A stretch of 64,000 bases of DNA from a virus (lineage: Duplodnaviria; Caudoviricetes). The notes beneath the pieces are model-generated. The model searched no databases. It worked only from the letters and a program-made list of their open reading frames with translations, and was not told where the DNA came from. Shown here piece after piece: positions 37,179-47,374 of the stretch. The first letter of the stretch is position 1. Every line of letters begins with the position of its first letter. The translations under genes were made by a program, and so were the position numbers. The stretch is taken from positions 1-64,000 of the IMG/VR virus record IMGVR_UViG_2663763243_000008. One strand, given 5' to 3'.

Positions 37179-38195
37179 TCACTTTTTCTGACCGCCTACC
37201 ACTGGCACAATTTCTGTTTTCCTATCATATCTTGCTGTTTGGGCTGTATTCTTGTGCCCTGAAATGGCTTGCTTCTCTGCGAGGGTTCCCTCTAAGTCTG
37301 ATATTCCCTTGGCTTTTAAATCATGAAACGTGAAATCAAAGTCCAATTCGGAAAATGTTTTTGCGGCCAATAATTTTGCGTTGCGCCACCGACTATTGAA
37401 ACCATCTCTTGTGTAGCCATGCCCAGACCGCTGATGTAGTACATAAATACTGCTCACACCTGGAGCGATTTCTATTCCATCTGCAATTTTGATGGCCTGC
37501 TGTAATCTTTCCGTCCATGCCTTGATCTGTTTCTTTCCTGTTTTCCCTTGCTGTATAAATACCCCGGCATCTATTAGCTGTGACTTTTTTAAGGCGAGGA
37601 TGTCTGCTTGCCGAGCGCAACAAAGATAGGCGAGTTCCATTGCCGCTTTTACAATCGGCGGAGCTACGTTGTAGAGAGCGCTATATTCAGCGTCAGTAAT
37701 GTATCGTTCCCTGCTAACCTCTTTAAATTGCTTAACATCCTTGCATGGGTTGCCTTTTACCATTCCCCTCTCATATCCCCAACGATAAACCCGCGATAGG
37801 AAAGTTTTCTCACGGTTTGCCTGTGTTCTACTGGCAACCCCGCGTCTATCCATATATTTCCTGATATGTTCAGGTTTTATGTTGTCTGGTTCCATTTTCC
37901 CGAAAACTGGTAATACTCTAAGTGAATATTTGCGGTAGTCTTTCTGCGTCTCAACAGCTAACTCATTAAAATCAACAGAGCGGAAAAACTGTTCAATGAG
38001 TTTATTCAAGTTGGCTTTTTCTAATGGCTCAGTATTTATTTTTTCGTAGCATGACCATACTTGAGAAATAGGTGCATCCAATGGGCATAGCGATATTGAG
38101 CCACCGCGGGCGGGGTGGAATTCATATTTCGATTTTCCACGATACACCCGAGGTGGTAATGCCGTGTCTGCGGCGTTCTTGCGTTTACCGGCCAC
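37179..38195 (-). CDS. int: Tyrosine integrase
   Basis: LCCARQAD, QGKTG, FHDLKAKG, GHK...TARY. Confidence 0.94.
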   Translation of the reverse strand: MAGKRKNAADTALPPRVYRGKSKYEFHPARGGSISLCPLDAPISQVWSCYEKINTEPLEKANLNKLIEQFFRSVDFNELAVETQKDYRKYSLRVLPVFGKMEPDNIKPEHIRKYMDRRGVASRTQANREKTFLSRVYRWGYERGMVKGNPCKDVKQFKEVSRERYITDAEYSALYNVAPPIVKAAMELAYLCCARQADILALKKSQLIDAGVFIQQGKTGKKQIKAWTERLQQAIKIADGIEIAPGVSSIYVLHQRSGHGYTRDGFNSRWRNAKLLAAKTFSELDFDFTFHDLKAKGISDLEGTLAEKQAISGHKNTAQTARYDRKTEIVPVVGGQKK

Positions 38196-38421
38196 TGTTC
38201 ATGGCCTCGAAATTGGGTTCTTCTTTTTCTGGCTCTAGCGGCTTACCGCGTAAACTGATTGGATTCAAAAAATGGCCCCAAGTGGTTTTCGGGTGTCCGT
38301 CTGGGCGTCGGATAAAAAAGATCCCCGAGCGGCGTAAAGAGTCACATTGTTTGGTTTTGTAGTGATGACCGGTCAACTCAATCATCTCCTCTTTGGTGAT
38401 TATGTCGTGGTCGTTTTTCAT
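38185..38421 (-). CDS. Excisionase (DUF4224-like)
   Basis: EEMIELTG...KQC..L...GI.F..RPDG.P...EPNF; overlaps int start. Confidence 0.85.
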   Translation of the reverse strand: MKNDHDIITKEEMIELTGHHYKTKQCDSLRRSGIFFIRRPDGHPKTTWGHFLNPISLRGKPLEPEKEEPNFEAMNSGR

Positions 38422-38584
38422 GGTCTTGCCCCTGTATCATTTGGGTTATTGCTCTGTCGGTCGCAGAACAGGCCCGCTGTATATCGTGGTCGGTGAGTTG
38501 TTGTTTCCGTACACTGGCTGATAATTTGCCGATCTTAATATCTAAGTCGGTTAATAGGCGTTTGCCCGGTTGCCATGGCTGCAT
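38378..38584 (-). CDS. Hypothetical protein
   Basis: 68-aa ORF overlapping xis; start codon lies in a GCATGGTGG..CCACCATGC inverted repeat. Confidence 0.55.
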   Translation of the reverse strand: MQPWQPGKRLLTDLDIKIGKLSASVRKQQLTDHDIQRACSATDRAITQMIQGQDHEKRPRHNHQRGDD

Positions 38585-38816: not shown

Positions 38817-38861
38817 GGGTGTTGCCTCAGTAATGCCCCGTTGGTTTGGGGCGGGATGAAA

Positions 38862-39362
38862 TTAGCGAACCTGCAGGCTACGGCTACCGATCTCGATATG
38901 CGCACCTTTAACATCAACACCATTCTCTATGGCTTCCTTAATGGCTTTTTTATCGGGCGCTACGGTGGTTTGCACTGTCACCAATTCACTGGACAATAAG
39001 TCTTCATTGTCGATCACCACACTGGCCACACCTTTGCGTGCGGTGAATGTGTTATACGGCGTTTTAAGTGTGTTCATATCTGCGGCCAATAAGCAGTTAA
39101 GGACGTACTGTTTGATCGATTTGGCCCGATTCTCGAATGACCTTTTCCGCTCAGCCAGACGTTTAGCTTCCTCATCACAGGTCTTTGCTTGCCCCTCAAG
39201 ATTGCGAACAAAGACGTAGGTTGCATCCAGCTTATCCCCCAGGGCACCCTCTAACCCCTCAAGCGTATCGGCGATCATTTCTGGCGTGAGTTCCTCTGAG
39301 GACTCAACCAACTGTTGCAGTTTGAAAAGGTCTGCGGCTAATGCGATTGCTGTATTGCTCAT
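38862..39362 (-). CDS. Siphovirus Gp157-family protein
   Basis: DTLEGLEG.L.DK...EAKRL.ERK...PDKKAIKEAI..G.DVKGA...SLQVR. Confidence 0.88.
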   Translation of the reverse strand: MSNTAIALAADLFKLQQLVESSEELTPEMIADTLEGLEGALGDKLDATYVFVRNLEGQAKTCDEEAKRLAERKRSFENRAKSIKQYVLNCLLAADMNTLKTPYNTFTARKGVASVVIDNEDLLSSELVTVQTTVAPDKKAIKEAIENGVDVKGAHIEIGSRSLQVR

Positions 39363-41554
39363 AATGTCGGCTCCTGTGCGGTAAGTTCAGCAACCCGTTT
39401 TTCAGTTAAGCGGTGTAACGCCAGCAGGCGGGTTTTGAGGTAATTGGCGTGTTCGTGATCGGCTTTGGCTTCTGCATCTTTGCGGTGTACATCAACTTCA
39501 CGCGCAATGGTGCTGTAAACCTTGTTCACTTCGTTGGTGGTGACGGCGCTCGTAATGGTATTGCCTACTTTGGTTAACTTCTCATCCAGCTCTTTGCGCA
39601 GACGAACTGAGTCACCGGCTTTCTCACTTGCGTTCTTGATAGCAAACTCAGCGGCGTTATCAGTGCGGTATCCGAGATCATCAAAAAGACCGAGGAATAC
39701 ATCAGCAGAGAAACCAAGTTGTGACAGTGCCTTTTTAGTCGCATCCGTTAGTGATTTTTTGGTGACTTCACTATCACAGGTGAGACCGTTTTTGGTGTTG
39801 TAGATATATGGGGTGCAACCATATGCAGGGATTTCGCCACGCTCACCACGCAGGGTGTAGATTAAGCGTATTTTAATGACATGATTGATCTCAGTTAGAT
39901 AGCCGCCAGATCCGTTGGGTATGACTTCTTTTATATAATTTCCATCAGCACCTTTGACTGACCGCATGATCGGTGCACCGTTATCAAAGCGTTCTTCTAA
40001 AATCTCCACCCGCCAGTTGATACCTTGTGGCCCAAGCAATTTTGTTGCTTGCATAACCATATAGGTGCCGTTAATCGACGTGCCACCACCGTTATTTGAG
40101 AATGCTTTAGTAAAGCGTTCATCGGTTCTTTGCACCGAGCGCCACAGATTCATGTTGTCCTGCACATCTTGTGGCTGTGAAGATATATCCTCTTCAATGA
40201 TGACGGCTCGCTGCTGAAATTCATCAGCAGTAACATCTACAGTAGGAATAGCGCTTTGCTGCGCCTCTTCAATAACCTCTGTCGGCTTCTCCTCAACTGA
40301 GGCATAAACGCTGTAACCCAACTGATCCAACGTCTCTTTAGCCTGTTGAGCTGCGTTATCAGTGATAGGTTCCAGTTCAGGGTTTTCCTGTTCTGTTTCA
40401 ACAATTGGCGGTTTTGTTTCAGTTTCTGGCTCAGAATTGGCAACCAGCGCCAGTTTTGTTTCATTGTTTGCCGCTGGTTGCGGTTCACCACCGGCTAGAC
40501 CATCAATAGAGAACTTGCCATCACCCAGATTGGTTACTGCGGGTTGTGGGTTTTTAACGGCTAAACACTGAGTGATAAATTCCTTTCGTGCTGAGGCATC
40601 GGTCAGGAAGATAGGTTGCTTTTTACCCGCGCGGATCACTTCAAAGATGCTTTCACGTGGAATAGATAACACATTGTTGCGAACGCGAAAATCGGTTGAC
40701 CATTTACGCCAGGCATCATCATTGTTATCCATCAGCTCTTTTGCTTGCTTCATCTCTGCCGACATGACATCCCAGCAGTTAAAATCAGCAGGCAATAAGG
40801 CGAGAGCGACTTCGAGATCGAGCGTTTTATATGTGTGCTCAAAGCTGCGTTTGATTGGCGCATCAGGAGCCGGCGTGTCAATACGGGCAACTTTTTTAGT
40901 ACCGGTTAACTCGTCACGATTGCTGGGTTCATTAACCCATTTTTCAGCAAAGCTACGTACTTCCCTGAATCCAGGTATTTTGGGGAATTTCTTATTTATC
41001 GCATCAATAAGATTTTTAATTGACTGCGGATACATCGCGCCAATTGCAGGAATACATGTGAGCGCCATGTATATCGAACTTATTTCCGGCTCAGCGTCGT
41101 CATCATTAATTAAGTCATACACAAGTGATAGCTCATGTGAATCAATGTCACGCGCACCGTACAACATTACGCTACCAACTTTAGCTCCAATACCCAGTTT
41201 GTTGAAATCAACCGGAGTAGTAGTAATGTCCTCACTTACCTCGCCGTTGTCTTCATTACCATCCTCAGGCAACGGTACAGCATTAGGCGTCCATACTTTG
41301 CCATCAAAGGTATTATCCTGTGCGAACTGCTCATCGAACTCACCAACAACCGGGCGCGGTTGCCCGACAGTATCCTCACAGATTTTCGGATCAGCAAAGT
41401 TATCACCGGCAGCGGGGTAGGCTTCCCATAATTTCCCGATGGCCAGTGCGGATGCCATTTTCTTATTTATGGCTTCCAGAGCTATAACAAGCGGTATAGC
41501 CCCATTTTTGAGAGCCGCTTTTTTCGGCTCGAATAAACAAATAAATACAGTCAT
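39359..41554 (-). CDS. RecE-like N-terminal region fused to a Rad52/Sak-like annealing domain
   Basis: HTYKTLDLEVALALL..W..WS (RecE-like); C-terminal TSINGTY...LGPQGINW...KKSLTDATKKALSQLGFSADVFLG. Confidence 0.7.
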   Translation of the reverse strand: MTVFICLFEPKKAALKNGAIPLVIALEAINKKMASALAIGKLWEAYPAAGDNFADPKICEDTVGQPRPVVGEFDEQFAQDNTFDGKVWTPNAVPLPEDGNEDNGEVSEDITTTPVDFNKLGIGAKVGSVMLYGARDIDSHELSLVYDLINDDDAEPEISSIYMALTCIPAIGAMYPQSIKNLIDAINKKFPKIPGFREVRSFAEKWVNEPSNRDELTGTKKVARIDTPAPDAPIKRSFEHTYKTLDLEVALALLPADFNCWDVMSAEMKQAKELMDNNDDAWRKWSTDFRVRNNVLSIPRESIFEVIRAGKKQPIFLTDASARKEFITQCLAVKNPQPAVTNLGDGKFSIDGLAGGEPQPAANNETKLALVANSEPETETKPPIVETEQENPELEPITDNAAQQAKETLDQLGYSVYASVEEKPTEVIEEAQQSAIPTVDVTADEFQQRAVIIEEDISSQPQDVQDNMNLWRSVQRTDERFTKAFSNNGGGTSINGTYMVMQATKLLGPQGINWRVEILEERFDNGAPIMRSVKGADGNYIKEVIPNGSGGYLTEINHVIKIRLIYTLRGERGEIPAYGCTPYIYNTKNGLTCDSEVTKKSLTDATKKALSQLGFSADVFLGLFDDLGYRTDNAAEFAIKNASEKAGDSVRLRKELDEKLTKVGNTITSAVTTNEVNKVYSTIAREVDVHRKDAEAKADHEHANYLKTRLLALHRLTEKRVAELTAQEPTL

Positions 41555-41609
41555 GTTGGTCTTGCCTCTTTGGTTTTTAAACGGATCTTGGTCTTTGATG
41601 TATGACTAA

Positions 41610-41945
41610 TTAAAAAGGAATTTCGGTATCATCAGATACGTTCGATGGAGTGCTGTGCTCGATGCATAGCAACGCCTGAATCTGATCATCAATTAGTGAC
41701 TGCTTACGATATGACTCAGCCGCAATCTGTTCCTTTTTGCTATGGAGTGAATCGACATGCTTGCTGATGATTTCAAAAGGGTCGGGTTCGTCAAAAGGAA
41801 TCGTAATTTCTCGGGTTTCGAGTAAAACATGCGCTGGCTCAACCTGTGACATGTCACAGGTGTACACGGTAAAGCGATCATCTTTTGATGTTGAATATGG
41901 ATTGGTATGGATGTAGAGCTTGGTGGTTATCTGTAGTGCTGTCAT
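41610..41945 (-). CDS. Hypothetical early protein
   Basis: AGGAG RBS before ATG 41945; ends DDTEIPF, resembling an SSB-type acidic tail. Confidence 0.72.
   Translation of the reverse strand: MTALQITTKLYIHTNPYSTSKDDRFTVYTCDMSQVEPAHVLLETREITIPFDEPDPFEIISKHVDSLHSKKEQIAAESYRKQSLIDDQIQALLCIEHSTPSNVSDDTEIPF
41842..41861. repeat. 20-bp perfect palindrome ACCTGTGACATGTCACAGGT
   Basis: Direct reading; contains the shared 14-mer. Confidence 0.9.
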
Positions 41946-41954
41946 AGCAACTCC

Positions 41955-41963
41955 TGATATACT
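41955..41963 (+). promoter_or_regulatory. Extended -10 promoter element for an antisense RNA
   Basis: TG-A-TATACT. Confidence 0.6.
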
Positions 41964-41968
41964 TATTT

Positions 41969-42088
41969 TAAGATTGATGGCGTAAGCCGTTGGTCTTGCC
42001 TCTGTTAACGGGTTGGTCCCCGTTAGCTTCCCGGTTAACTTTGGTCGGTGACCCGGGGTAAAGAAGCCCACTTCGGTGGGTTTTTTTA
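41969..42088 (+). ncRNA. Predicted antisense small RNA with three UUGGUC motifs
   Basis: Extended -10 upstream, three stem-loops whose G-U pairs work only on the + strand, then intrinsic terminator GCCCAC-TTCG-GTGGGT-T6. Confidence 0.7.
42064..42088 (+). terminator. Intrinsic terminator oriented against the pL operon
   Basis: AAGCCCACTTCGGTGGGTTTTTTT. Confidence 0.8.
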
Positions 42089-42255
42089 CGTCTGTAATTT
42101 GGTGCCCATTACGCCGGGCCAGCGGGTCAGATCTTCGGTCTTGCCTCACCACACTTTCCCGTCGTGGCTACGTTATTGGTTTGGGCTGCTGCACTGTGGT
42201 AATCATGCCGAGCCTTGGCGCGGGGTTCTCCTCCAATGCAACAACCCAAATTCTG

Positions 42256-42411
42256 TTATTGCCGTACTTTGACTACTTGATAATCACGGCCAGTATTACG
42301 TGCGTAATCATCAGCTTCTTTGCGAGTTGGGTAAGTATTTCCGTTAGCCCACATTCCACAGTAGCGATATTGGATCTGGAATTTACTCGCTTGCTTTTTA
42401 GTTGCTTTCAT
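42256..42411 (-). CDS. 51-aa hypothetical, first gene of the pL operon
   Basis: GAGGGA RBS, MKATKKQASKFQIQY... Confidence 0.55.
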   Translation of the reverse strand: MKATKKQASKFQIQYRYCGMWANGNTYPTRKEADDYARNTGRDYQVVKVRQ

Positions 42412-42465
42412 AACTTCCCTCTTTTGCCGTCTTCCCGGCTGCCAGAACGTACTAAACCTAAACTT

Positions 42466-42527
42466 GCGAATCATCCGGTGTTTCGTATGCCACCGGCAGC
42501 TACTTCGTGGGCGTCCTGCCTGTTCGC
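42466..42527 (-). ncRNA. Structured pL leader element
   Basis: GCGAA..TTCGC closing stem with GCAG..CTGC and CCGGTG..CACCGG hairpins just after pL. Confidence 0.45.
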
Positions 42528-42556
42528 ATCGGCTACTGTGCCGTGTTGATGAGAGA

Positions 42557-42609
42557 AATGTACCTATAGTTACCTTTCGTGTCAATAAGGGGGTGTTCCA
42601 ATAGTTACA
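42557..42609 (-). promoter_or_regulatory. pL promoter with two OL operators
   Basis: TTGACA-17-TACATT on minus; operators TGTACCTATAGTTACC (42559) and TGTTCCAATAGTTACA (42594). Confidence 0.8.
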
Positions 42610-42620
42610 TTTAGGGGCAT

Positions 42621-42646
42621 AAAAAAGCCCATCAGGGGGATGGGCT
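42621..42646 (-). terminator. cI terminator
   Basis: AGCCCATC..GATGGGCT followed by T-run on minus. Confidence 0.8.
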
Positions 42647-42651
42647 ATTGA

Positions 42652-43314
42652 TTACAGGTCTTGGGTAACCTGAACAACGCGACCGAGAATACGGCAATTG
42701 CCGTTTATTTCGATGGGTTTGAAATTGGGATTTAAAGGCATTAGGTATTTATTGGGGCCATCAACAACTAACTTTTTAATGGTGGCCTCGGAGCTGCCAT
42801 CAATGATGGCGACCACTATTTTACCGTACAAATCATCAATAGAACCATAATTAGGTTCTACGATAACGGTAGACCCCTCGGGGATAGAAGGGGAACCATT
42901 GGGGTTGGTCATTGACTCACCCCGAACATCCAAACCAAATGCGTTTTCAGAAACCTTCACTGTGGTGTTGCACCATCTAAGAACATCAGAGATACGGGCG
43001 GCGGAGTAGGTTTCTGTCCAGGCACCGGCTTGAACGGATGAGATGACAGGTATGGCATTAGGCACAGCGACGAGGGGCTTAATCTTCGTATCGTCAACCT
43101 GACGTAAATCTCCGGTACCATAGAGTAACCACTCTGGCGTGCATGAAAGTATTTGCGCCAGCCGGTGAAGATTTTCCCCATCTGGTTTAGTGATTCCTGA
43201 CTCCCATTTTGTCACTGATACACGGCTCACCCCAATAGCTTTGGCTAATTGGACTTGCGTGAGATCTAGCTGCAGTCTGCGAAGACGGATGCGGTCATTC
43301 ATTTCATTTTTCAT
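42652..43314 (-). CDS. cI: CI-like repressor (HTH + S24 peptidase)
   Basis: LTQVQLAKAIGVSRVSVTKWE; VRGESM and TIKKL autocleavage residues; start probably 43314. Confidence 0.93.
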   Translation of the reverse strand: MKNEMNDRIRLRRLQLDLTQVQLAKAIGVSRVSVTKWESGITKPDGENLHRLAQILSCTPEWLLYGTGDLRQVDDTKIKPLVAVPNAIPVISSVQAGAWTETYSAARISDVLRWCNTTVKVSENAFGLDVRGESMTNPNGSPSIPEGSTVIVEPNYGSIDDLYGKIVVAIIDGSSEATIKKLVVDGPNKYLMPLNPNFKPIEINGNCRILGRVVQVTQDL

Positions 43315-43379
43315 GTAACCAATGTTACGCCATAGCGATGTGAAAAGTGTTTGCATTGTTATGTACCTTTTGTTACCTT
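43314..43379 (+). promoter_or_regulatory. pR promoter with OR operators
   Basis: TTGCAT-17-TACCTT; operators TGTAACCAATGTTACG (43314) and TGTACCTTTTGTTACC (43362) match OL. Confidence 0.78.
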
Positions 43380-43406
43380 TCATCCTGAGTTAAACAAGGA
43401 GTTCCT

Positions 43407-44117: not shown

Positions 44118-44133
44118 AACAGAGGCAAGACCA

Positions 44134-44358
44134 ATGCTTACATCTATCGACAAAATCACCTGGCGCAACGGATTCCGGCTTAACGGCCAACCGGCAAGCA
44201 TGGTTGACATCGCCCCTATTTTTGCCGGGCGTCAGGTAGCCGCCTATAGCGTGTGGGAGCAGTATGAACAAAAGAAAGCCGACCTGCGCGGGATGAACCT
44301 ATCGCCTGACGATTATCAGTCTGCCTGTCGGCAAATAGCCGAAGCGCTAGGGATCTGA
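44134..44358 (+). CDS. Hypothetical protein
   Basis: RBS AGAGGCAAGACCA; between cII and replication genes. Confidence 0.75.
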   Translation: MLTSIDKITWRNGFRLNGQPASMVDIAPIFAGRQVAAYSVWEQYEQKKADLRGMNLSPDDYQSACRQIAEALGI

Positions 44359-46693: not shown

Positions 46694-46737
46694 CCGCGCC
46701 TGACCAGCGTTTAAGTAACCCCAAAAGAGGCAAGACC

Positions 46738-47122: not shown

Positions 47123-47374
47123 ATGTCCGGGCAATCTGATTATCTCCCGCCCGGACTCCCGTACAACATTTGCCTCTGGCCTCAGGAATACCAAGAAAAG
47201 CTAAATCTTGATTTGAGAGCCAGCGGCTTAATCAAAAACCTGTACGAGCGCAGGACCAACCGCGCTCATGTACTTGAAGCGATTGAACGGGTACCGGTGC
47301 ATTACCGAGAGTTTTTTAAAGAGCGCTTAAATTACTGGCGTGACCGTAGAGACCACAGAGGCGAGACCAAATGA
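47123..47374 (+). CDS. DNA polymerase III theta-like (HolE/Hot) protein
   Basis: EKLNLDL.ASG...P.HYREFFKERL resembles HolE DKVNVDLAAAG...PEHLRSWFRERL. Confidence 0.65.
   Translation: MSGQSDYLPPGLPYNICLWPQEYQEKLNLDLRASGLIKNLYERRTNRAHVLEAIERVPVHYREFFKERLNYWRDRRDHRGETK

What the first reader, a model, noticed from the sequence alone, without database searches (positions are those of the whole stretch)
41955..42088. Predicted prophage antisense sRNA complementary to a ribosome-binding-site motif shared by six early genes
Seen: inside the leftward operon, the + strand has an extended -10 (TGATATACT, 41955), three stem-loops and a T-tailed terminator (ends 42088). Stem 1 (41970-41997, GUAA tetraloop) has four G-U pairs that would be A-C mismatches on the other strand, so the fold favours a + RNA. 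It carries GUUGGUCUUGCCUCUGUU and two more UUGGUC hairpin loops (42013, 42041). The complement, GAGGCAAGACC, forms the Shine-Dalgarno-to-start segment of xis (38422, GGGGCAAGACC-ATG), the 60-aa gene (38817, weaker), the RecE/Sak gene (41558) and the rightward genes at 44134, 46738 and 47371 (GAGGCGAGACC). Pairing would be about 13-19 nt, and the deviations at 38422, 42136 and 47363 are A>G, which keeps G-U pairing. Known: P1 c4 and P4 CI RNAs give RNA-based immunity but act on essentially one operon. Inference: a trans-acting RNA silences translation across both early operons as a second immunity layer, or acts against related phages. I do not recognise it as a described family.
Basis: partly seen in the sequence, partly recalled or inferred. 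Interest (0 to 1): 0.92.

Follow-up and report, generated by a model that had tools for sequence, protein, structure and literature searches.

The report
Prophage small RNA mirroring shared start-site tag
A lambda-like prophage encodes a roughly 118-base small RNA, a distant relative of Salmonella IsrB, whose exposed stretch mirrors a private ribosome-binding tag on its recombination, excision and replication genes, so one RNA probably holds those genes down together.

Summary
At 41970-42087 (+) lies a conserved, strongly folding RNA gene with a -10 box and a U-tailed terminator. It is antisense inside the leftward early operon of a Rac/Gifsy-like prophage. It matches Rfam isrB only at the cut-off (35.0 bits) and sits at a comparable place to Gifsy-2 IsrB. 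Covariation and 102 G-U cells against 0 A-C cells show that the fold is selected on the + strand.

Its seed UUGGUCUUGCCUCU is the complement of the tag GAGGCAAGACC (9 copies against 0.85 expected). The tag sits directly before ATG at six genes that open translational units.

The tag is phage-private: 31 of 32 copies in five whole bacterial genomes lie in prophage clusters that also hold the seed. All 15 tag-ascertained viral contigs carry the RNA.

A sister clade has the seed UUGGUCUUUCCUC and the tag GAGGAAAGACC. The tag counts are 284/0 against 0/79, a compensatory switch.

No expression or functional data could be obtained, so repression in trans remains an inference (about 0.55). Earlier notes of this scan describe the same system on other DNA in at least six genomes. 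Phage ZF40 carries it and could be used for tests.

The parts
41955..41963 (+). Extended -10 box TGATATACT of the sRNA promoter. It overlaps the SD region of the 111-aa gene on the other strand.
   Evidence: Invariant in 21 of 21 distinct type-A sequences, while the 6 nt that follow vary. Relatives have TAAAAT, TATAAT or TAGAAT at the same place. Not listed by the consensus scan.
41970..42087 (+). Predicted sRNA of about 118 nt: stem 1, linker, two UUGGUC-loop hairpins and a terminator.
   Evidence: Folds. Rfam isrB at 42000-42086, 35.0 bits. Covariation. Strand test.
41970..41997 (+). Stem 1: 12 bp with 4 G-U pairs and a GUAA loop. Its 3' arm holds the first part of the seed.
   Evidence: In 12 type-A variants, 144 of 144 cells pair on the + strand against 95 of 144 on the - strand. 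All changes lie in the 5' arm or keep pairing.
41990..42003 (+). Seed UUGGUCUUGCCUCU (anti-tag). GCCUCU at 41998-42003 is single-stranded.
   Evidence: Invariant in 28 of 28 distinct sRNAs (the collection pattern fixed most of it, but 17 of 17 protein-ascertained loci also hold it). Mean unpaired probability of the GCCUCU part is 0.95.
42004..42027 (+). Hairpin 2, loop UUGGUC.
   Evidence: 6 of 9 pairs show changes on both sides; the loop is invariant.
42029..42058 (+). Hairpin 3, inner loop UUGGUC within CUUUGGUCGGU. This is the IsrB core.
   Evidence: 4 of 9 pairs show changes on both sides. Shared with Gifsy-2 IsrB.
42060..42087 (+). Intrinsic terminator (GCCCAC-UUCG-GUGGG plus U7).
   Evidence: and the Rfam alignment. 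One search listed only the - strand reading.
41992..42002 (-). Orphan tag copy inside the sRNA gene, followed by ACG rather than ATG. It is part of the pL transcript.
   Evidence: It is a diverged paralogue of the tag plus first codons of the 74-aa gene.
42137..42147 (-). Second orphan tag copy in the pL transcript, with no start codon behind it.
   Evidence: Present in part of the relatives only.
41558..41568 (-). Tag before the RecE-like exonuclease gene (39359-41554), which is coupled to the Gp157/Gam-like gene.
   Evidence: Cofold ddG -18.4 kcal/mol.
38818..38828 (-). Weakened tag GAGGCAACACC before the 60-aa gene. A hairpin with an AAACCAAC loop lies upstream at 38835-38852.
   Evidence: ddG -8.2. 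Relatives have the exact tag and a GGACCAAC loop.
38422..38432 (-). Tag GGGGCAAGACC before xis (38185-38421), which overlaps int.
   Evidence: ddG -16.9.
44122..44132 (+). Tag before the 74-aa gene (phrog_2465), which leads the O-like initiator and the DnaB helicase genes.
   Evidence: 92% complementarity over 25 sRNA positions, query 33-57. ddG -30.9, the strongest site.
46727..46737 (+). Tag before the 126-aa gene, which is followed by the theta-like 83-aa gene.
   Evidence: ddG -12.8.
47358..47368 (+). Tag GAGGCGAGACC before the 168-aa gene, which is coupled to the 721-aa DNA methyltransferase gene.
   Evidence: ddG -17.6.
42557..42585 (-). pL-like promoter TTGACA-17-TACATT. The pL transcript runs through the sRNA gene.
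41610..41945 (-). 111-aa gene (phrog_2479) just downstream of the sRNA gene in the pL direction, with its own GGAG RBS.

Best explanation
The region is an independently transcribed, roughly 118-nt small RNA gene. It is a divergent, 5'-extended relative of Salmonella prophage IsrB, and it lies antisense near the start of the pL operon.

Between stem 1 and hairpin 2 the RNA exposes GCCUCU. This is the open end of a 14-nt seed, UUGGUCUUGCCUCU, complementary to A-GAGGCAAGACC-AA. That sequence is a phage-private tag which includes the Shine-Dalgarno core. It sits 0-3 nt before the ATG of the first gene of six translational units:
- xis-int
- the 60-aa gene
- recE-like plus gp157
- 74 aa plus O plus DnaB
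- 126 aa plus theta-like
- 168 aa plus methylase

Inferred mechanism, in three steps:
1. Pairing starts at the exposed anti-SD stretch.
2. Pairing then displaces the G-U-rich stem 1.
3. The duplex occludes the ribosome-binding site. In a lysogen this would hold leaky excision, recombination and replication expression down. It could also act on incoming phages that carry the same tag.

The regulators cI, cro and ydaT/cII have other RBSs and would escape. On induction, the perfectly complementary pL transcript, with its two orphan tag copies, would titrate the RNA.

Shown here: the gene's anatomy, strand-specific structure conservation, enrichment and position of the tag, mutual co-occurrence, and the compensatory seed/tag switch.
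Inferred: transcription in this host, repression, and the biological role.
For: RNA gene:
- The Rfam isrB match over the full model is 35.0 bits.
- Gifsy-2 IsrB (99.3 bits) also lies antisense in the leftward early operon, there directly upstream of sbcA/recE; here the 111-aa gene lies between.
- In Salmonella, IsrB was seen by Northern blot and primer extension (PMC2330248, passages read).
- On 28 distinct sRNAs, 97.6% of cells pair. 10 pairs change on both sides, against 4.9 in shuffles (0 of 500 shuffles reach 10).
- The + strand pairs in 641 of 657 cells and the - strand in 539 of 657. There are 102 G-U cells and 0 A-C cells.

Tag:
- 9 copies against 0.85 expected. Six lie before ATG.
- In five whole genomes, 31 of 32 copies lie in prophage clusters that also hold the seed. 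The reversed-pattern control gave 0.

Link between RNA and tag:
- 17 of 17 protein-ascertained relatives hold the seed.
- 15 of 15 tag-ascertained contigs hold the sRNA.
- Of 97 IsrB-core loci without the seed, 95 have no tag copy and 2 have one.
- 92 loci with the G seed hold 284 GAGGCAAGACC..ATG and 0 GAGGAAAGACC..ATG. 27 loci with the U seed hold 0 and 79.
- The base before GAGG shifts with the seed. It is A in 72 of 97 unique contexts with the CCUCU seed, and C in 24 of 48 with CCUCG.
- Single deviations in tags: 12 wobble-preserving units against 5 that break pairing.
- Cofold ddG is -8.2 to -30.9 kcal/mol at tagged starts. It is 0 to -4.6 at eight untagged starts. The ninth untagged start, that of the 111-aa gene, gave -12.6 because its region overlaps the sRNA gene in cis.
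- Phage ZF40 has 8 tag copies in 11.4 kb (0.10 expected) and an sRNA with a perfect TATAAT box.
Against: - There is no expression evidence for this RNA in any host.
- The consensus scan did not list a + promoter or a + terminator here. The -35 region is poor.
- The Rfam score sits exactly at the cut-off. The default gathering scan of the whole window reported nothing. Type-B relatives and ZF40 are not called isrB.
- Eight of the 14 seed bases are paired in stem 1.
- The seed/tag switch is in effect one event between two clades. Because the sRNA gene contains a tag copy on its - strand, the switch would also arise if some other phage factor reads all tag copies.
- The loci counted are not independent; several come from one contig.
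- Extended complementarity beyond the core shows no clean subtype-specific covariation.
- Gifsy-2 IsrB has no recurrent RBS complement, so this role cannot be generalised to the whole family.
Confidence: 0.55

Rival explanations
1. The RNA acts only in cis. It pairs with the pL transcript that runs through its gene, giving RNase III cleavage, termination or transcriptional interference. It matches the tags only because its gene happens to contain a relic tag copy. The tags themselves would be kept uniform by another phage factor, such as an RNA-binding protein.
For: - The gene lies near the start of the pL operon, about 0.5 kb from a pL-like promoter here and directly after the pL leader in some relatives.
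- The - strand copy is a diverged paralogue of the 74-aa gene's start region.
- IsrB in Gifsy-2 is likewise antisense within the operon and has no tag system.
Against: - A purely cis antisense RNA needs no particular sequence. Yet the 14-nt seed is identical from Yersinia-type to Proteus-type phages, while the neighbouring stems change by compensation.
- In ZF40 the orphan copy has lost the first G of GAGG, in a way that keeps G-U pairing with the tags.
- Tag deviations lean towards wobble-preserving changes.
Confidence: 0.2
2. The functional strand is the - strand. On this reading the region is a structured pL leader: a nut-like, attenuator-like or sponge-like element with GACCAA loops. There would be no + RNA.
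For: - The - strand hairpins carry GACCAA loops.
- A similar hairpin plus tag precedes the 60-aa gene.
- One search lists the - strand hairpin as terminator-like.
- An earlier scan note (e1-6216495) read a look-alike region this way.
Against: - 102 G-U cells would become A-C mismatches on the - strand, and no cell pairs only on the - strand. Stem 1 pairs in 144 of 144 cells on + against 95 of 144 on -.
- The - strand fold has z -2.4, against -6.3 for the + strand.
- The - strand tail CTTCTTTACC is a poor terminator.
- The homologous IsrB is a + type transcript in Salmonella (PMC2330248).
Confidence: 0.07
3. The sRNA is real, but its main targets are host mRNAs, reached through the conserved UUGGUC/CUUUGGUCGGU loops shared by all IsrB types. 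The tag is simply this phage lineage's preferred strong RBS.
For: - The CUUUGGUCGGU loop and the terminator are the parts shared with Gifsy-type IsrB, which has no tag system.
- IsrB is induced by starvation in Salmonella (PMC2330248).
Against: - This does not explain why the seed and all tags switch together.
- It does not explain why tags are absent from host genes: 31 of 32 copies lie in prophages.
Confidence: 0.1

Closest known systems
IsrB-1 / IsrB-2 of Salmonella Typhimurium prophages Gifsy-2 and Gifsy-1 (Rfam RF01386)
   Same: - Antisense position inside the leftward early operon near the recE/sbcA module.
- The hairpin with the CUUUGGUCGGU loop.
- The CCCACUUCGGUGGG terminator.
- Its own -10 box beside the start of the downstream pL gene.
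   Different: - The window RNA scores only 35.0 bits, against 99.3 for Gifsy-2 IsrB.
- It is about 30 nt longer at the 5' end (stem 1 plus seed) and has three UUGGUC motifs instead of one.
- Gifsy-2 has no shared RBS tag and no recurrent complement to IsrB.
- I found no target for IsrB in print. It is called likely lysogeny-related in PMC5391140 (passage read) and has 0 mentions in the 2025 review PMC12197685 (term search).
c4 immunity RNA of phages P1 and P7
   Same: A prophage RNA that pairs, partly through loop sequences, with repeated complementary sites at a ribosome-binding region and so blocks a lytic function. The description of c4 comes from passages of the review PMC12197685 and from recall.
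   Different: - c4 is processed from the same transcript as its target and acts on one operon (recalled).
- The RNA here has its own promoter, is antisense-encoded, and matches six start sites in two divergent operons.
- No Rfam match other than isrB reached an E-value below 0.03.
Start-Associated Sequences (SAS) of cluster K mycobacteriophages
   Same: - A 13-bp asymmetric, phage-private motif that contains the SD core.
- It lies a few bases before mostly ATG starts of non-structural genes of different families, in one orientation, and is nearly absent from the host genome.
- Its partner was left open as 'either RNA or protein' (PMC3203893, passages read).
- Its function was still called unverified in 2025 (PMC12699233, passages read).
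   Different: - The sequence is unrelated (GGGATAGGAGCCC) and the hosts are unrelated.
- No complementary RNA is described there.
- Here a matching RNA gene sits in the same phage and changes in step with the tag.
Cis-antisense phage RNAs such as P22 sar and lambda OOP
   Same: A short terminated RNA transcribed against an early operon (recalled; not checked in a paper here).
   Different: Those RNAs act on the overlapping transcript only (recalled). The RNA here has in addition an invariant seed that matches distant start sites.

Membership tests
Rfam isrB (RF01386) | Covariance-model score at or above the gathering score of 35 bits. | tested here: inconclusive
   35.0 bits over the full model at 42000-42086 + (E 2.8e-4, marked 'over cut-off: yes'). 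The default gathering scan of the whole window returned nothing. Of the relatives, type D scores 80.8 and type E 38.2. Type B (3 loci) and ZF40 are not called.
Rfam isrB (RF01386) | Hairpin with the CUUUGGUCGGU loop, followed by the CCCACUUCGGUGGG terminator. | tested here: met
   Alignment. The pattern built from these two elements recovers both Gifsy-type and window-type RNAs.
Rfam isrB (RF01386) | Position: antisense within the leftward prophage operon beside the recE/sbcA module. | tested here: met
   PMC2330248 Table 1 gives the orientation as <- -> <-.
Rfam isrB (RF01386) | Expressed as a discrete RNA of about 90 nt that binds Hfq or ProQ. | not testable with these tools
   No RNA run held the stretch.
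P1/P7 c4-type or P4 CI-type immunity RNA | Sequence and structure homology to those families. | tested here: not met
   Neither Rfam scan reported such a family. The resemblance is one of working principle only.
SAS-like start-associated tag (cluster K mycobacteriophages) | An asymmetric motif that includes the SD core, lies a few nt before the start codon, reads in one orientation, marks non-structural genes and is rare in the host genome. | tested here: met
   The consensus differs from the cluster K sequence, so this is an analogue, not a member.
CsrB/RsmZ-type protein sponge | Repeated GGA motifs in hairpin loops; a match to an Rsm or Csr model. | tested here: not met
   The loops are UUGGUC. 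The rsmX match is 23.6 bits against a gathering score of 56.

The most novel reading that the evidence does not exclude
The tag and the sRNA form a phage-private translational address system with at least two natural specificities: G seed with C tag, and U seed with A tag. On this reading a resident prophage's RNA silences the effector genes (excision, recombination, replication, methylase) of itself and of any incoming phage that carries the same tag, but not those of phages with the other tag. That would be an RNA-based heteroimmunity layer laid over the protein repressor. The pL transcript would act as the built-in decoy that releases the block on induction.
Probability: 0.3. Interest if true: 0.9.

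Novelty: new variant of a known kind. Interest (0 to 1): 0.78.

Why it matters
- It would give a first function to a branch of the IsrB family, known since 2008 without a target.
- It would show a new design principle in temperate phages. One small RNA would control many translational units in both early operons through a private ribosome-binding tag, instead of one operon as with P1 c4 or P4 CI.
- It offers a concrete RNA partner for start-associated tags. The analogous SAS motifs of mycobacteriophages have lacked an explanation since 2011.
- The two natural seed/tag pairs amount to a ready-made compensatory-mutation experiment.
- The isolated phage ZF40 carries the system, so the idea can be tested directly.

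Tried and rejected
Expression. The look-up of sequencing runs listed no RNA holder. Read laying on 41750-42350 with three raw RNA runs carrying the same species label gave 0 reads in each. One contig of unknown kind from run X1 covered the stretch. This says nothing for or against expression.

Other seed classes. The pattern with A or C at the central seed base gave 17 stretches, none with the sRNA architecture. Only the G and U classes were found.

Subtype-specific covariation beyond the core. The - strand copy resembles the start of the 74-aa gene family in all subtypes. However, the cognate gene scored best in only 2 of 6 rows, one of them tied. I read this as old paralogy, not covariation. 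Within the U class, the 5' extension was not above shuffles (P 0.155).

Tags in other IsrB types. Gifsy-2 and representatives of other IsrB types showed no recurrent RBS 8-mer complementary to their sRNA.

Similarity searches. Only ZF40 matched in 'phages', and nothing matched in E. coli for the window RNA. The U-class RNA occurs in 5 of 5,426 E. coli genomes, unannotated, and in no record of 'phages'.

Literature.
- The search for the tag or seed letters returned 252 papers. The 15 listed were all eukaryotic primer or siRNA hits; the other 237 were not seen.
- The IsrB searches gave no target. 'IsrB' in PMC12266141 looks, from the title and from recall, like the unrelated E. coli RNA of that name.
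- The ZF40 search listed no transcriptome study among the 15 of 1,733 papers shown.
- Supplements of papers were not opened and may hold sRNA lists that bear on this.

RNAduplex energies looked inflated by long looped duplexes. I used the cofold differences instead.

Full report
Setting. The window holds a P2-like prophage, per earlier scan notes that I did not check, and, from about 37 kb, a Rac/Gifsy-like lambdoid prophage. The record is an IMG/VR provirus of 79,813 bases.

Annotation:
- Leftward genes:
  - int (37179-38195)
  - xis (38185-38421)
  - a 60-aa gene
  - a Gp157/Gam-like gene
  - a 731-aa RecE-like exonuclease (39359-41554)
  - a 111-aa gene (41610-41945)
  - a small gene ending at 42256, probably 51 aa from ATG 42410
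  - an S24-type cI (42652-43383)
- Rightward genes:
  - a cro-like gene
  - a YdaT/CII-like gene
  - a 74-aa gene
  - an O-like initiator
  - a DnaB helicase
  - a 126-aa gene
  - a theta-like 83-aa gene
  - a 168-aa gene
  - a 721-aa DNA methyltransferase

A pL-like promoter, TTGACA-17-TACATT, lies at 42585-42557 on the - strand.

Observation.
- The + strand folds to -60.1 kcal/mol (z -6.27; 0 of 200 shuffles as good). The - strand folds to -36.3 kcal/mol (z -2.40).
- The 11-mer GAGGCAAGACC, with at most one mismatch, occurs 9 times against 0.85 expected.
- Eight copies lie between 38.4 and 47.4 kb, always in the sense of the local operon. Six sit 0-3 nt before an ATG.
- The ninth copy (60141) lies inside a late gene and looks like chance.
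- One caveat: the simple consensus scan listed neither the + promoter nor the + terminator, and it listed the - reading of the hairpin.

What the RNA is. A permissive Rfam scan matched isrB (RF01386) over the full model at 42000-42086 +, with 35.0 bits, exactly the gathering score. The default scan of the whole window reported nothing.
- In Gifsy-2 the model hits at 99.3 bits between sbcA/recE and STM1010. That site is antisense to the leftward operon, with a -10 box next to the start of the downstream gene. The arrangement here is similar, except that the 111-aa gene lies between the RNA and the recE-like gene.
- IsrB-1 and IsrB-2 were detected by Northern blot and primer extension as RNAs of 88 and 94 nt, induced by starvation (PMC2330248, passages and Table 1).
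- I found no target for it. A 2025 review of phage sRNAs does not mention it (PMC12197685, term search).
- The window RNA is therefore a divergent IsrB relative with about 30 extra bases at the 5' end. Its closest kin (type B, ZF40) fall below the Rfam cut-off.

Relatives and structure.
- All 17 loci found through the neighbouring 111-aa protein (74-81% identical) hold the exact 21-mer around the seed.
- A seed-independent pattern of the IsrB core gave more than 116 viral stretches of several types.
- On 28 distinct seed-bearing RNAs (alignment A1), hairpins 2 and 3 and the terminator pair in 97.6% of cells. 10 pairs change on both sides, against 4.9 in shuffles (0 of 500 shuffles reach 10). 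Slid controls pair in 33-51% of cells.
- The fold belongs to the + strand. 641 of 657 cells pair on + and 539 of 657 on -. There are 102 G-U cells and no A-C cell.
- Stem 1 of the 12 type-A variants pairs in 144 of 144 cells on + and in 95 of 144 on -.
- A -10 hexamer stands at the same place in every type (TATACT, TAAAAT, TATAAT, TAGAAT).

The tag. The six tagged genes each open a translational unit (coordinates):
- xis (overlapping int)
- the 60-aa gene
- recE-like (ATGA overlap with gp157)
- 74 aa (followed by O and DnaB, with 2-nt and overlapping junctions)
- 126 aa (followed by the 83-aa gene)
- 168 aa (ATGA overlap with the methylase)

The genes cI, cro, ydaT/cII, the 51-aa gene and the 111-aa gene have other RBSs.

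The tag is phage-private. In five whole bacterial genomes, 31 of 32 tag-plus-ATG copies lie in six clusters spanning about 8-22 kb that also hold the seed pattern. The reversed pattern occurs 0 times. By their record titles, the five genomes are Xenorhabdus, Symbiopectobacterium, Providencia, Pectobacterium and Yersinia.

Link between RNA and tag.
- Every locus with the seed has 3-8 tag copies, counting its own complement. Of 97 IsrB-core loci without the seed, 95 have none and 2 have one.
- In the other direction, among stretches found by tag plus ATG alone, 15 contigs had two or more true copies, and all 15 carry the seed plus the UUGGUC hairpin.
- Prompted by a motif quoted in an earlier scan note, I searched for a one-letter seed variant. 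I found a sister clade of 25 distinct RNA segments with the same architecture but the seed UUGGUCUUUCCUCG.
- In 27 such loci there are 79 GAGGAAAGACC..ATG and 0 GAGGCAAGACC..ATG. In 92 G-seed loci the numbers are 0 and 284; 2 of the 92 had no exact copy. This is a compensatory switch, G-C to U-A.
- The base before GAGG shifts too. It is A in 72 of 97 unique contexts opposite CCUCU, and C in 24 of 48 opposite CCUCG.
- Single deviations in tags are wobble-preserving in 12 units and breaking in 5. The binomial P is 1.7e-5 against 7/33, and 0.049 against a 45% null that I assumed. The units are not fully independent.
- Cofold energy gains are -8.2 to -30.9 kcal/mol at tagged starts. They are 0 to -4.6 at eight untagged starts. 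The 111-aa start gives -12.6 only because it overlaps the RNA in cis.
- GCCUCU is unpaired with probability 0.95, while UUGGUCUU sits in the G-U-rich stem 1.

Origin. The - strand of the RNA's 5' part is a diverged copy of the tag plus the first codons of the 74-aa gene. In the window the match is 92% over 25 positions. In type B it still has an ATG and a 4-codon ORF. A second orphan tag lies at 42137. A hairpin with a GACCAA-type loop plus a tag also precedes the 60-aa gene. This mirrors hairpin 2 plus the seed, and would allow a loop-loop contact.

Reading. The best-supported explanation is a trans-acting anti-RBS RNA that also pairs in cis with the pL transcript.
- The main weakness is that the switch is one event between two clades. 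Because the RNA gene embeds a tag copy, another phage factor that reads all tags would give the same pattern.
- The - strand reading is disfavoured by the strand test.
- No RNA data could be had.

Comparison.
- The principle is that of P1 c4 or P4 CI, but with its own promoter and six start sites in two operons.
- The tag is an analogue of the SAS motifs of cluster K mycobacteriophages. Their partner was left open as RNA or protein in 2011 (PMC3203893), and their function was still called unverified in 2025 (PMC12699233).
- Phage ZF40 carries the whole system, hidden inside an over-called gp08.

Earlier notes of this scan describe the same system in at least six other genomes. I treated them as leads, and I tested the variant-seed lead myself.

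Noticed in passing
window 41610-42152 (-); L367 4919-5407: The longest ORF (GTG start, 180 aa) runs across the sRNA gene. The real gene most likely starts at ATG 41945 with a GGAG RBS (111 aa). ZF40 gp08 is annotated in the same over-extended way and hides that phage's sRNA.
   Followed up: partly
window 42256-42585 (-): The 109-aa TTG ORF overlaps the pL-like promoter. A 51-aa gene from ATG 42410 with the RBS GAGGGAAG is more likely. It has no PHROG hit. The leader holds a CCGGUG/CACCGG hairpin (about 42475-42495) that is conserved in relatives lacking this gene.
   Followed up: partly
window 38835-38852 (-): A GCCCC/GGGGC hairpin with loop AAACCAAC lies just upstream of the weakened tag of the 60-aa gene. 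Relatives have loop GGACCAAC and the exact tag, that is, the mirror of sRNA hairpin 2 plus the seed.
   Followed up: partly
window 42626-42646 (-): A clean intrinsic terminator directly after cI, followed by the pL-like promoter. cI and pL are therefore separate units, with no rex-like genes between them.
   Followed up: no
L183 (IMG/VR contig), about 5.8-6.8 kb of the locus: An unrelated GC-rich viral contig has three start sites with GGAGGCAAGA(A/C)C. This may be another private start-site tag.
   Followed up: no
L498 (IMG/VR contig), around 99-132: A tandem array of CTTTGGTCTTACCT units in an AT-rich viral contig, caught by chance by the seed-variant pattern.
   Followed up: no
literature: The name IsrB is also used for an unrelated E. 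coli K-12 RNA. The 45 mentions in PMC12266141 look like that RNA, judged from the search listing and from recall, not from reading the paper. Literature searches on the name are therefore polluted.
   Followed up: no
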